A DNA stretch of 64,000 nt from an uncultured Chloroflexia bacterium (lineage in GTDB: Bacteria > Chloroflexota > Anaerolineae > Anaerolineales > Villigracilaceae): assembly GCA_963771375.1 (NCBI GenBank), contig CAVYTW010000010.1:90284-154283 (forward strand). Direction: 5' to 3'. Position 1 is the stretch's first letter, and every line of letters starts with the position of its first letter. Positions 60,001 to 63,000 of this stretch are shown here, piece after piece. A program made the position numbers.

Positions 60001-63000
60001 CTTCGCACGAATCTTCGATCAGCTTGATTTTGTAATTATCCGCAATCTTGCGAATCGGATCGAGGTCCGCAGGCTGACCGAAGACATCCACTGGCAGAAT
60101 CGCTTTCAGTGTATGCTTCGTTCCCGACCCTTTACGCGGCAACCACTTCTCAGCCTTCTTTCCGCCCTCGATTAAGTCTCGAGCGGCTTGCGACGCGAGC
60201 TGTGCATCAATGTTTCCCGTTTTTGGATTCACATCCACAAAAACAGGAATTGCGTTTTCGTACAGCATTACGTTCGCCGAGGCGACAAACGAGAACGGCG
60301 TGGTGATGACCAGATCCCCTTCACCAATTCCTGCTGCGCGCACGCATAGATGCAAGCCTGATGTCCCCGACGAAACACCGATGGCCTGTTTGGCTCCGGT
60401 CAAATCGCAAAAGGATTTTTCGAAATCGAGAATCCAGTGGCCCATGCTGAGATTTGGTGTATTGAGGACGCTTTGAACTGCCTGACGCTCTGCATCGGTC
60501 AGGTCGGGAGAAGACATGGGAATTTGAAATACCATTTTATTTTTTGATTTCTTCAACAAGGTTTTCAATCCGCACAAGTATATTCGCTTTCTCCTTGCGC
60601 GGCTTCAATTCTACCATTCCCTCTTTGAGATTTTTCTCGCCGACAGTAATCCTGATTGGGCATCCGATCAAATCTGCATCATTGAATTTGACTCCAGCAC
60701 GCTCGTCGCGGTCGTCGAACAAAACCGAGACGTTTGCATTTTGCAGAATGTTATAAATCTCTTCGGCTTTGGAGCGTGTATCCATTTCCTTGCCTGGAAC
60801 ATTCATCAAATAAACATCAAATGGAGCAATAGATTTTGGAAAAGCTAAACCTTTTTCATCGTGATGAACTTCCGCAAGTGCGGAAAGGATGTTGTCAAAA
60901 CGATAATCATTTCCTTCAGCAAGCAATTCAGCATTGGATAAATCTAATTTGCTTCCACAGTTCGGGCAAGCATCGCCTGCATTGGCTATCACAGTGTCTG
61001 CAATAATTTCAGCGGCGTAATCGCGGCCATAGTTTGTATACTTCAAATGAAAACCCGCTTCATTTGCACCAGCGACCAGATTCGCCGATTGAGGAATGAG
61101 ATCATCCACAACAATCAACGCGTCTTTGAGTCCGATCGGCGAAGCATATCCTGCCGCGGCACCAGCTTTGACGATTTCATCAGAAGTTGCGAGTCGAAAG
61201 TCTCCAACGAGTTTATTCAATTTGGCTTCGCTGAGTTGCATGTCGCCGCGGACGACGACAAAAATGAATTTGCCGTCCGAATTGCGCGTGAACATGAGAG
61301 CTTTGGCAGTTTTCTCTTCGGGAATTCCAAGAAATTTTGCCAACAACTCAATGGTGTGGCAATCTGGAGTCAAAACTTTTTCAATGGGAAGTTGTTCTTC
61401 GGTGGAGAAGGGAATCTTTTTAAATTGAGCAATTTCTCTGCGAGAGGTGTATCCGCATAATGGACAGTGAATCACTTCTATCGAACCCGTTTCAATTGGG
61501 AAGAAAGTTTCCTGTTGATTTGCAATAACAGGCAATGACAATAGTGAAATTAAGTTCGGTTGACCCGCCAACGATTTCAAATGTTCAGTGGCTTGTTTGC
61601 CAAGCGGAAGAATATCATTTTCACGCGTGATATATCCGGCGCGCACCAGCCAGCCGAATCCCCTCCGTCCGCATGTTGGACGGGAATTCGCGTTGAGTAT
61701 AAATTTGCAAATCGCGATATTTCATAAAATATATTTTAGGAGTACGTCATTGTGTATTGGGCGTCTCGTTCTTTTTCTTTCTTGTCTTCGGCGCGGGTAG
61801 GGGGATGGTGATCGGCGTCTGCGCGATGGATTCAGCTTGGGCCGCCTCACTCGGTGTGGCCTGTGGAGCCGCTTCAAGGTCCAGTTCGACCGTTTCTTCC
61901 ATTCGGATTTGTCCGCGCAGGAACGCGCCTTCTTCGGTCACGAACGCGGTTGTGACCACATCGCCCCAGACGCGGCCCGTGCCGCGGATCTCCAATTTTT
62001 GAGTCGTGATGTTGCCGCGCACTGCGCCTGCGACGATCACGTTATTTGCGCGCACGTTCTCGCAGGTGACGCGTCCCGTTTCGCCGACCACCAACATGCC
62101 TCGCAAAGCGATATCGCCCTCGAACGCGCCTTCGATGCGGACGCCGCCCGAACCGTTGATCGCACCATGCCAGATGACGCCCGGCCCAAGGACAGATGTG
62201 ATTCGTTCCACCGCCTGAACGGGTTGTGCGGAGTCAGTGGGCGCGGCGTTTCGTTTGAACATAATGAGATTATTGTACCTTAAAAAAGAACGCCGATTTT
62301 TTATCGGCGTTCTATACTGATTACTCGCTGCTTTCTTTTGCATCCAAATTCATCTGCACACCGACCGTGTTGAAACCTCCATCCACATATAACACTTCGC
62401 CCGTGATGTGCTTGGATAAATCTGAGGCAAGGAAGACCGCCGCGTTGCCCACGTCTTCAATGTTGATATTCTCACGCAACGGCGACATATCTGCAAAGTG
62501 TTTGTACATATCGCGGAAACCGCCCACGCCCGCCGCGGCCAACGTGCGGATCGGTCCCGCTGAAATGGCATTGACGCGGATCTTTTGCGGGCCGAGATCG
62601 TATGCCAAATATCGCGTCGATGATTCGAGGGCGGCTTTTGCCACGCCCATCACGTTGTAATGAGGCGCAACTTTTACCGAACCGTAATACGTCAGGCACA
62701 TCACAGATGCACCCGGATTCAGAATCGGCAGAAAAGCATTAGTCAATGCGACGAGCGAATACACACTGATATCCAGCGCGTTTTTGAAACCTTCGCGGCT
62801 GGTCTGATAATATGGCCGGCTTAACTCGTCGCGGCCTGCAAAAGCAATTGAATGCACGAGCACATCAATCTTGCCAAAATGCTTCGCCGTTTTTTCTGCG
62901 ACCAAAGCAATCTGATCATCCTTGGTCACATCGCATTCTTCGACCCATTTGCATGCCACCTGTTCAGCCAGCGGTTTGACGCGCCGTTCGAGCATCTCAC

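What the first reader, a model, noticed from the sequence alone, without database searches (positions are those of the whole stretch)
60537..61725. ProRS-derived protein that keeps the N-terminal segment, INS editing domain and anticodon-binding domain but has lost the aminoacylation core
Seen:
- The joined frame (ATG 61725; 1-nt break near 61660) gives about 395 aa.
- 'MKYRDLQIYTQREFPSNMRTEG|FGWLVRAGYITRENDILPLGKQ' corresponds to the ProRS N-terminus ('TLRE.P...SH.LL.RAGYI....LP.G').
- It runs almost directly into 'FFPIETGSIEVIHCPLCGYTSRREIA', the segment that in bacterial ProRS immediately precedes the INS domain.
- A complete INS/YbaK-like editing domain follows: 'KALMFT...FVVVRGDMQLSEAKLNKL...AGYASPIGL...VAGANEAGFHLKYTNYGRDY'.
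- Then comes 'AGDACPNCGSKL'.
- Then the class IIa anticodon-binding domain: 'IAPFDVYLMNV...[43 protein letters not shown]'.
- Missing are about 150 residues that carry motifs 1 and 2 (the 'FRDE.RPR.G..R.REF' region).
- The motif 3 block ('GIEVGHIF.LGTKYS...MGCYGIGVSR') is also missing, replaced by about 30 unrelated residues.

Inference:
- The protein cannot activate proline.
- It could still bind the tRNA-Pro anticodon and deacylate Ala-tRNA-Pro, i.e. act as a tRNA-targeted free-standing editing factor.
- That would make sense if the genuine ProRS of this organism is the INS-less archaeal/eukaryote-like type encoded elsewhere.
- I do not know of a described family with this architecture.
Basis: partly seen in the sequence, partly recalled or inferred. 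Interest (0 to 1): 0.65.

Follow-up and report, generated by a model that had tools for sequence, protein, structure and literature searches.

The report
ProRS relic: editing plus anticodon domains
This gene is the conserved remnant of a bacterial prolyl-tRNA synthetase that has lost its charging core but kept its proofreading and tRNA-anticodon-binding domains, so it most likely works as a stand-alone, tRNA-Pro-targeted proofreading enzyme in a group of Chloroflexota bacteria.

Summary
Window 60537-61725 (- strand) encodes a 395-aa ProRS derivative. It has an N-terminal ProRS segment, a CxxC, the INS editing domain, a second CxxC and a class IIa anticodon-binding domain (ABD). It lacks E. coli ProRS residues ~60-181 (motif 1, motif 2) and 414-442 (motif 3).

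It is not a decaying pseudogene:
- Intact 395-422-aa orthologues occur in at least 44 Anaerolineales/Chloroflexota species genomes.
- dN/dS is 0.12-0.15 in every region.
- All INS editing residues are invariant.

It ends a reduction series: canonical ProRS, then full-length forms with ruined motifs 2/3, then 493-540-aa intermediates, then this minimal form. It sits at the same locus (Pur_DNA_glyco-FabI-bactofilin-gene-DegT-DUF92) as the canonical bacterial-type proS of related Anaerolineae, so it is that gene's positional orthologue.

The most likely function is an anticodon-directed trans-acting Ala-tRNA(Pro) deacylase. That would make it a bacterial counterpart of crenarchaeal ThrRS-ed.

Not shown:
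- The partner ProRS in the same genomes. An archaeal-type ProRS is common in Anaerolineae, but I could not link one to a minimal-form genome.
- Any enzymatic activity.

The 1-nt frame break is an extra G in a G run. It is probably an assembly error, but it recurs in one related contig.

The parts
60537..61725 (-). Whole gene: a 395-aa ProRS-derived protein once one G of the run at 61660-61663 is removed. As assembled it is a 22-codon head plus a 369-aa ORF starting at GTG 61646.
61660..61663 (-). GGGG run carrying the 1-nt frame break. Relatives L001 and L002 have GGG; L164 also has GGGG.
61512..61725 (-). Retained N-terminal ProRS segment (residues 1-71). It corresponds to E. coli ProRS 1-59 plus a short piece, 182-197. 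It is highly conserved in the family (dN/dS 0.09).
61455..61466 (-). First CxxC (C87-P-L-C90), just before the INS domain. Invariant in 24 of 24 family members.
61032..61370 (-). INS / YbaK-like aminoacyl-tRNA editing domain (residues 119-231 by Pfam; 80-244 by alignment to ProRS). The equivalents of E. coli T257, I263, L266, K279, the GxxxP loop, D350 and H369 are all present.
60957..60968 (-). Second CxxC (C253-P-N-C256), just after the INS domain. Invariant in the family. Together with the first CxxC it is a likely four-Cys zinc site at the base of INS.
60816..60956 (-). Linker that replaces the motif 3 region (residues 257-303). It keeps the helix 'ILSALAEVHHDEKGL.FP' that leads into the ABD. 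dN/dS is 0.035.
60540..60815 (-). Class IIa anticodon-binding domain (residues 304-395), including the ProRS signature '[21 protein letters not shown]'.

Best explanation
The gene encodes a non-aminoacylating descendant of the bacterial-type prolyl-tRNA synthetase, and it is the positional orthologue of that gene. The aminoacylation core has been eroded away. The INS editing domain, the anticodon-binding domain and a small scaffold (N-terminal segment, a four-Cys site, the pre-ABD helix) are kept in ProRS-like geometry.

Proposed mechanism (inferred):
1. The ABD binds the G35/G36 anticodon of tRNA(Pro).
2. This presents the acceptor end to the INS pocket.
3. INS hydrolyses Ala-tRNA(Pro) made by a separate ProRS that lacks INS, probably the archaeal/eukaryote-like type.

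Shown here: the architecture, the loss of motifs 1-3, conservation and purifying selection, the reduction series, and positional orthology.
Inferred: the deacylase activity, its Ala specificity, and the identity of the partner ProRS.
For: Architecture and loss of the core. The PF00587 core score falls from 88-90 bits in canonical relatives to 36 (P0263) and 25 (L048), and is undetectable in P0261, the intermediates and the minimal form. The tRNA_edit and ABD scores stay equal or higher.

Editing residues: T257, K279, D350 and H369 are invariant in all forms. The I263/L266 equivalents and the GxxxP loop are also conserved in every form shown.

Selection: dN/dS is 0.12-0.15 overall, 0.09 for the N-terminal segment, 0.14 for INS, 0.035 for the linker and 0.15 for the ABD.

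Family size: more than 120 clusters at 90% identity, about 10 full-length clusters at 50% identity, and 44 GTDB species genomes, all Anaerolineales, Anaerolineae or Chloroflexota.

Phylogeny: the non-catalytic clade is monophyletic in 89 of 100 bootstraps and the minimal form in 86 of 100. The clade is nested beside canonical Anaerolineae ProRS.

Synteny: Pur_DNA_glyco-FabI-bactofilin-gene-(DegT)-DUF92 is found in 47 of 55 minimal-form loci. The same context surrounds canonical proS in 7 loci and degenerate forms in 2 loci.

Structure: the AlphaFold model's best PDB matches are full-length bacterial ProRS, with E 1e-26 and query-normalised TM 0.57-0.67.

Literature: INS editing of Ala-tRNA(Pro) depends on the ABD reading G35/G36, not on the acceptor stem (PMC3973320; PMC11295145).

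Partner: archaeal-type ProRS is widespread in Anaerolineae, and both types coexist side by side in L058, L065, L089, L103 and L117.
Against: - No enzymatic data exist.
- No genome carrying the minimal form could be shown to encode an INS-less ProRS. No second ProRS lies within +/-10 kb in the 53 minimal-form loci scanned for one.
- A derived Cys, invariant in the minimal form, lies inside the editing-pocket region ('TPDC', E. coli position 260). It appears only in the non-catalytic clade and could signal a changed substrate.
- The AlphaFold model has low confidence in parts of INS: residues 102-120 and 189-244 have pLDDT below 50.
- The copy in this window carries a frame break.
Confidence: 0.62

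Rival explanations
1. The relic keeps tRNA(Pro) binding but has a different job. It might edit another mischarged species on tRNA(Pro), such as Cys, Ser or a non-protein amino acid. Or it might act as a tRNA(Pro)-binding regulator or chaperone with no catalysis.
For: - A derived Cys at E. coli position 260, within the editing-pocket region, appears only in the non-catalytic clade.
- INS-superfamily members are known to have diverse amino-acid specificities (PMC11295145).
- No activity has been measured.
Against: - The residues that define Ala editing in E. coli INS (I263, L266, K279, GxxxP, H369) are all retained unchanged. The assignment of I263 and L266 to the Ala pocket is from my own recollection of the literature.
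- Invariance of catalytic residues is hard to explain for a purely binding role.
Confidence: 0.22
2. The gene is a decaying pseudogene, or the deletions are assembly artefacts, and the organism's real proS would be restored by correct sequence.
For: The window copy has a 1-nt frame break. Related long-read assemblies contain split genes.
Against: - The same deletions are present in more than 100 independent assemblies from NCBI, JGI, ENA and Logan, at 47-88% identity.
- dN/dS is 0.12-0.15 on both sides of the break.
- Intermediate forms document stepwise loss of the core.
Confidence: 0.03
3. It is one half of a split ProRS. A separately encoded catalytic fragment would assemble with it to restore aminoacylation.
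For: Split synthetases exist. The retained N-terminal segment is strongly conserved and its role is unexplained.
Against: - Relatives lose the core by motif degeneration within a full-length protein, not by gene fission.
- The neighbouring genes are bactofilin, FabI, DegT and DUF92, not a class II core fragment.
- Motif 1, the dimer interface, is gone.
Confidence: 0.04
4. This rival concerns the window copy only. The GGGG is real. Either the gene is inactivated or N-terminally truncated in this strain, or the break is bypassed by +1 recoding at the SD-like GGAGGGG.
For: - The same GGGG occurs in a second contig, L164, which is 88.4% identical in nucleotides. L002 comes from the same assembly, has the same sequence context, and has GGG.
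- Between the two GGGG copies dS is 0.43 and dN/dS is 0.13-0.14 on both sides of the break. If the extra G is inherited, both parts are still translated.
Against: - Every other family locus examined has an uninterrupted frame.
- Both GGGG contigs are long single contigs with Flye-style names, as are the related ENA contigs that show split genes, so a homopolymer error is likely. This is my inference; the sequencing platform was not stated.
- Four Gs is short for slippage, and no slow codon follows the run.
Confidence: 0.12

Closest known systems
Bacterial-type prolyl-tRNA synthetase with INS domain (E. coli, E. faecalis 2J3L, S. aureus 5ZNJ; NCBIfam NF006625 / TIGR00409)
   Same: - It is the direct evolutionary parent and positional orthologue.
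- It has the same N-terminal segment, INS editing domain with all catalytic residues, pre-ABD helix and ABD.
- The CxxC...CxxC pair is already present in canonical Chloroflexota ProRS.

   Different: - It lacks about 160 residues that carry motifs 1, 2 and 3.
- It scores 228 bits against the 558-bit cutoff of NF006625, and 154 against the 307-bit cutoff of TIGR00409.
- It cannot form Pro-AMP.
Crenarchaeal ThrRS-ed (Ser-tRNA(Thr) hydrolase, NCBIfam NF011500), partner of ThrRS-cat
   Same: The logic is the same. A synthetase-derived protein keeps an editing domain plus the anticodon-binding domain and proofreads in trans the product of a separate catalytic synthetase (PMC3592468; PMC11295145).
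   Different: - The editing fold is unrelated (DTD-like versus INS/YbaK).
- The amino acid and tRNA differ.
- It is archaeal rather than bacterial.
- Sequence similarity is confined to the ABD (22 bits against a 362-bit cutoff).
- Here the partner has not been identified.
Single-domain INS-superfamily trans-editing factors (ProXp-ala, YbaK, ProXp-x, ProXp-ST1/2)
   Same: It has the same editing fold and conserved Lys. ProXp-ala does the same job, Ala-tRNA(Pro) hydrolysis, in organisms whose ProRS lacks INS (PMC3973320).
   Different: - Those proteins are single-domain. They read the acceptor stem (ProXp-ala) or have no tRNA specificity (YbaK).
- This protein carries its own ABD and ProRS scaffold.
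- Its INS is ProRS-type. TIGR00011 YbaK scores 22.5 bits against a 153-bit cutoff.
Truncated ProRSx of Streptomyces/Kitasatospora (about 200 aa, ABD only)
   Same: It is a ProRS-derived fragment that retains the anticodon-binding domain (PMC10404621).
   Different: - It has no editing domain.
- It is interpreted as a partial deletion or inactivation next to tRNA(ProX) genes.
- Its distribution is sporadic, not a broadly conserved family.

Membership tests
Bacterial-type ProRS (NF006625 / TIGR00409) | Class II catalytic core with motifs 1, 2 and 3 (Pfam PF00587) | tested here: not met
   PF00587 is not detected. Alignment to E. coli ProRS shows that residues ~60-181 and 414-442 are absent.
Bacterial-type ProRS (NF006625 / TIGR00409) | Whole-protein score above the curated equivalog cutoff | tested here: not met
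   The scores are 228.3 against a cutoff of 558, and 154.5 against a cutoff of 306.7.
Bacterial-type ProRS (NF006625 / TIGR00409) | INS editing insertion and C-terminal class IIa anticodon-binding domain | tested here: met
   PF04073 has E 3.8e-21 and PF03129 has E 1.1e-20. They align to S. aureus ProRS 217-383 and 445-556.
INS superfamily of aminoacyl-tRNA deacylases | YbaK/INS fold with the conserved catalytic Lys (E. coli K279), the GxxxP loop and His (H369) | tested here: met
   K141, G192-P196 and H226 (P0004 numbering) are invariant in 24 of 24 members. Column-by-column comparison with E. coli agrees.
INS superfamily of aminoacyl-tRNA deacylases | Free-standing members are single-domain proteins | tested here: not met
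   This protein has an added ABD and ProRS scaffold. The review statement is quoted.
INS superfamily of aminoacyl-tRNA deacylases | Hydrolysis of a mischarged aminoacyl-tRNA | not testable with these tools
   This needs a deacylation assay.
YbaK (Cys-tRNA(Pro) deacylase, TIGR00011) | Score above the equivalog cutoff | tested here: not met
   The score is 22.5 bits against a cutoff of 153.25.
ThrRS-ed type split editing synthetase (NF011500) | Homology of the editing domain; score above the cutoff | tested here: not met
   The score is 22.2 bits against a cutoff of 362, and the match covers the ABD only. The resemblance is one of design only.
ThrRS-ed type split editing synthetase (NF011500) | A separate catalytic synthetase for the same tRNA, lacking that editing domain, encoded in the same genome | tested here: inconclusive
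   Archaeal-type ProRS (TIGR00408, 555 bits against a cutoff of 437) is common in Anaerolineae and adjacent to bacterial-type proS in 7 loci. It was not found on any minimal-form contig.

The most novel reading that the evidence does not exclude
A lineage of Anaerolineales has split prolyl-tRNA synthesis and proofreading between two genes of different ancestry. An archaeal-type ProRS charges tRNA(Pro). The relic of the native bacterial-type ProRS, stripped of its active site in documented steps at its original locus, survives as an anticodon-guided trans-editing enzyme. This would be the first INS-family editing factor with its own anticodon-binding domain, and a bacterial parallel to crenarchaeal ThrRS-cat/ThrRS-ed.
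Probability: 0.5. Interest if true: 0.72.

Novelty: new variant of a known kind. Interest (0 to 1): 0.62.

Why it matters
- Mechanism. It would be a natural ProRS without an aminoacylation domain. That gives a minimal system for studying how the anticodon-binding domain anchors tRNA(Pro) for INS editing. A 2024 review calls the molecular basis of this step poorly understood.
- Evolution. Canonical, motif-dead, partly deleted and minimal forms all sit at one syntenic locus. This is an unusually complete record of an essential enzyme becoming a dedicated quality-control factor after its main activity was displaced.
- Annotation. These proteins are currently named 'proline--tRNA ligase', 'prolyl-tRNA synthetase' or 'YbaK/EbsC family protein'. 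The first two names would mislead metabolic and completeness calls for Chloroflexota MAGs.

Tried and rejected
Attempts to find the partner ProRS in the same genome:
1. No second ProRS-like sequence is in the 64-kb window (tblastn).
2. None lies within +/-10 kb of the 53 minimal-form loci scanned for one.
3. I compared contig lengths between the minimal-form hits and 120 archaeal-type ProRS hits. There were no matches. The archaeal-type enzyme is so uniformly conserved (75-81% identity) that the top-120 list is not lineage-specific.
4. I compared NCBI accession numbers for five proteins of each kind. The four minimal-form and four ProRS accessions returned were not adjacent.

Other dead ends:
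- Looking up the window's own 369-aa product returned 'not on record'.
- Five literature searches aimed at this architecture, covering INS plus ABD, ProRS-like or truncated ProRS, and Chloroflexi terms, found no description of it. The nearest item is the truncated ProRSx of Streptomyces, which is ABD only.
- One tree-building script failed on an outgroup label and one timed out. I replaced them with a Kimura-distance NJ tree.
- The window holds no tRNA genes.
- Gene neighbours gave no functional clue. The bactofilin/FabI/DegT context is inherited from canonical proS.
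Full report
**1. What is in the sequence**

On the - strand an ATG at 61723-61725 opens a frame that runs 22 codons. The main 369-aa ORF starts at GTG 61646, lies in another frame, and ends at TAA 60537-60539. tblastn of the joined protein recovers both pieces at 100% identity. The break is a GGGG run at 61660-61663; two close relatives (L001, L002) have GGG at that position. With one G removed the product is 395 aa.

Domain searches give these results:
- Pfam detects tRNA_edit (PF04073, E 3.8e-21) and HGTP_anticodon (PF03129, E 1.1e-20), but not the class II core PF00587.
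- NCBIfam's best models are the ProRS equivalogs, far below their cutoffs: 228 against 558, and 154 against 307.
[quoted passage not shown] The N-terminus matches ProRS 1-57 only weakly.

I took E. coli ProRS from NC_000913 and aligned it with the intact orthologue P0004. The orthologue keeps E. coli 1-59, 182-197, 209-413 and 443-568. It lacks about 60-181, which holds motif 1, the THEE loop and motif 2. It also lacks 414-442, which holds motif 3.

**2. A conserved family, not a decaying gene**

A search of 5.8 billion proteins returned more than 120 clusters of 390-418 aa at 66-88% identity. Nearly all of them cover 93-100% of the joined sequence, N-terminal segment included. The sources name them 'YbaK/EbsC family protein', 'prolyl-tRNA synthetase', 'proline--tRNA ligase' or 'hypothetical'.

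A scan of one genome per GTDB species found the same architecture in 44 species. All are MAGs labelled Anaerolineales, Anaerolineae, Chloroflexota or similar, and they include Ca. Villigracilis proximus, UTCFX1 and CFX5.

At 50% clustering there are about ten full-length clusters of the minimal form.

In a 24-sequence alignment the following are invariant (P0004 numbering):
- four Cys: C87 and C90, C253 and C256;
- the INS Lys, K141;
- the GxxxP loop, G192-P196;
- H226;
- much of the N-terminal segment.

Nei-Gojobori dN/dS between the frame-corrected window gene and L001 or L002 is 0.12-0.15. By region it is 0.09 (N-terminal segment), 0.14 (INS), 0.035 (linker) and 0.15 (ABD).

**3. The end of a reduction series at the ancestral proS locus**

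The exhaustive representative search and the genome and metagenome scans also recovered relatives of other lengths. Alignment with E. coli ProRS and canonical Chloroflexota ProRS sorts them into four groups:

| Group | Examples | State of the core |
|---|---|---|
| (i) Canonical, 570-600 aa | L052, L058, L068 | Intact 'THEE', 'FRDEPRxRxGLxRxREF' and 'SYGIGxGR' |
| (ii) Full length, degenerate | L048-L050, P0261, P0263, several metagenome loci | Those motifs are degenerate |
| (iii) Intermediates, 493-540 aa | P0247, P0254-P0256, P0258, P0260 | Part of the core deleted |
| (iv) Minimal, 395-422 aa | this gene, P0004, P0241 | Core absent |

The Pfam core score falls from 88-90 bits (canonical) to 36 (P0263) and 25 (L048), and then to nothing (P0261, the intermediates and the minimal form). 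The editing and ABD scores stay equal or rise.

The E. coli editing residues T257, K279, D350 and H369 are unchanged in every group. The I263/L266 equivalents and the GxxxP loop are also conserved in every form shown.

A neighbour-joining tree on 395 shared columns places groups ii-iv as one clade in 89 of 100 bootstraps, with the minimal form monophyletic in 86 of 100. The clade is nested next to canonical Anaerolineae ProRS, in the order canonical, degenerate, intermediate, minimal.

The gene order Pur_DNA_glyco - FabI - bactofilin - [this gene] - (DegT) - DUF92 is seen in the window and in 47 of 55 minimal-form loci. The same context surrounds canonical proS in L068, L075, L094, L100, L108, L123 and L138, and degenerate forms in L127 and L153. 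The minimal gene is therefore the positional orthologue of the bacterial-type proS, worn down in place.

The CxxC...CxxC pair is not a new feature. Most canonical Chloroflexota ProRS already have it, and E. coli does not.

**4. Mechanism**

Published work shows that the INS domain of bacterial ProRS hydrolyses Ala-tRNA(Pro). Its tRNA specificity comes from the ABD reading G35/G36, not from the acceptor stem (PMC3973320; PMC11295145). The relic keeps exactly these two modules and discards the module that makes aminoacyl-adenylate.

The AlphaFold model of P0004 has mean pLDDT 72. Confidence is high for residues 20-100, for 250-300 and for most of the ABD, and low for parts of INS. The best PDB matches are full-length bacterial ProRS over their whole length, with E 1e-26 and query-normalised TM 0.57-0.67. 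This is consistent with a residual scaffold holding INS and ABD in ProRS-like geometry.

I therefore propose an anticodon-directed trans-acting Ala-tRNA(Pro) deacylase, with confidence 0.62. The activity, the Ala specificity and the zinc site are inferred.

One derived feature deserves caution. A Cys at E. coli position 260 ('TPDC'), inside the pocket region, appears only in the non-catalytic clade and is invariant in the minimal form. It could mark a changed specificity.

**5. The partner synthetase**

These organisms must charge tRNA(Pro) with another enzyme.
- An archaeal/eukaryote-type ProRS (TIGR00408, 555 bits against a cutoff of 437) lies 1-3 kb from a canonical bacterial-type proS in L058, L065 and L089, and overlaps it in L117. 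Together with L103 and the partial L086 and L105, this adjacency occurs in seven loci.
- Thousands of close homologues exist in Anaerolineae and Chloroflexota assemblies.

Genomes with two ProRS types are therefore common in this class. That is the precondition for losing one catalytic core while keeping the only INS domain.

I could not show an archaeal-type ProRS in a genome that carries the minimal form. This is the main gap.

**6. The frame break**

The window is otherwise 92% coding with long ORFs. Related ENA assemblies show split genes.

The same GGGG also occurs in L164 (P0018; ERZ25039480 contig_12878), which is 88.4% identical to the window gene. L002 comes from the same assembly, has the same sequence context, and has GGG. 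Between the two GGGG copies dS is 0.43 and dN/dS is 0.13-0.14 both upstream and downstream of the break.

Whatever the cause, both parts have stayed under selection. A recurrent homopolymer error is the most likely explanation. A real insertion, tolerated or bypassed by +1 recoding at the SD-like GGAGGGG, cannot be excluded without reads.

**7. Comparison with what is known**

A 2024 review lists the INS superfamily as ProRS INS plus eight free-standing families. [quoted passage not shown]
- The closest design analogue is crenarchaeal ThrRS-ed, which pairs an editing domain with an ABD and works with ThrRS-cat. Its editing fold is unrelated.
- The truncated ProRSx of Streptomyces keeps only the ABD.
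- Literature searches found no description of an INS plus ABD protein or of ProRS pseudo-enzymes in Chloroflexota.

I rate this a new variant of a known kind. It is known chemistry and known domains in an undescribed, conserved stand-alone architecture, with a clear evolutionary origin.

**8. Verdict**

The partner ProRS and the activity remain to be shown. Interest 0.62.

Noticed in passing
window 61660-61663; L164 about 2981-2984: The same extra G (GGGG instead of GGG) breaks the frame in a second contig, which is 88% identical to the window gene. A third contig from that same assembly has the identical sequence context and GGG. dN/dS is about 0.13 on both sides of the break between the two GGGG copies. 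This points to a recurrent homopolymer error, or less likely to a tolerated or recoded frameshift at an SD-like GGAGGGG.
   Followed up: partly
L058 8874-10679 and 13456-14907; L065 9293-11083 and 12339-13850; L089, L103, L117 (L086 and L105 partial): Several Anaerolineae, Aggregatilineales and metagenome loci carry an intact bacterial-type ProRS (with INS) beside an archaeal-type ProRS: 1-3 kb apart on the same strand in four of them, overlapping in L117. This recurrent dual-ProRS arrangement is unexplained.
   Followed up: partly
window 61747-63774 and 57509-60577; L001-L046, L068, L075, L094, L100, L108, L123, L138: The gene order Pur_DNA_glyco - FabI - bactofilin - proS or relic - (DegT aminotransferase) - DUF92 is conserved across Anaerolineae. 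The bactofilin gene often lies within 0-100 bp of, or overlaps, the start of proS or the relic, which suggests co-transcription.
   Followed up: partly
window 61455-61466 and 60957-60968; canonical ProRS in L047-L082: Many canonical Chloroflexota and Latescibacterota ProRS, as well as the relic, have a CxxC...CxxC pair flanking the INS insertion. E. coli ProRS lacks it. This is a probable zinc site at the base of the editing domain. I found no description of it in the papers I read here.
   Followed up: partly
window ~61361-61363 (Cys122, 'TPDC'); alignment columns at E. coli ProRS A260: A Cys inside the INS pocket region is invariant in the minimal form and present in nearly all degenerate and intermediate forms. 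It is absent from canonical relatives, which have G, N, T or V at that position.
   Followed up: no
window 8905-13902 and 13757-16333 (+ strand): A 1665-aa ORF with at least 7 GAF domains overlaps by 146 nt a same-strand 858-aa GAF-PAS-HisKA-HATPase ORF in another frame. This may be one giant sensor kinase of about 2,470 aa split by a second frameshift, or two separate genes.
   Followed up: partly
L001 2323-2939 and 10302-10860; L002 5470-6760: Related ENA assemblies (ERZ25039529, ERZ25039480) have Pur_DNA_glyco, MntP and DegT each called as two adjacent fragments. This suggests indel errors in that data set. In the window, DegT and Pur_DNA_glyco are intact.
   Followed up: partly
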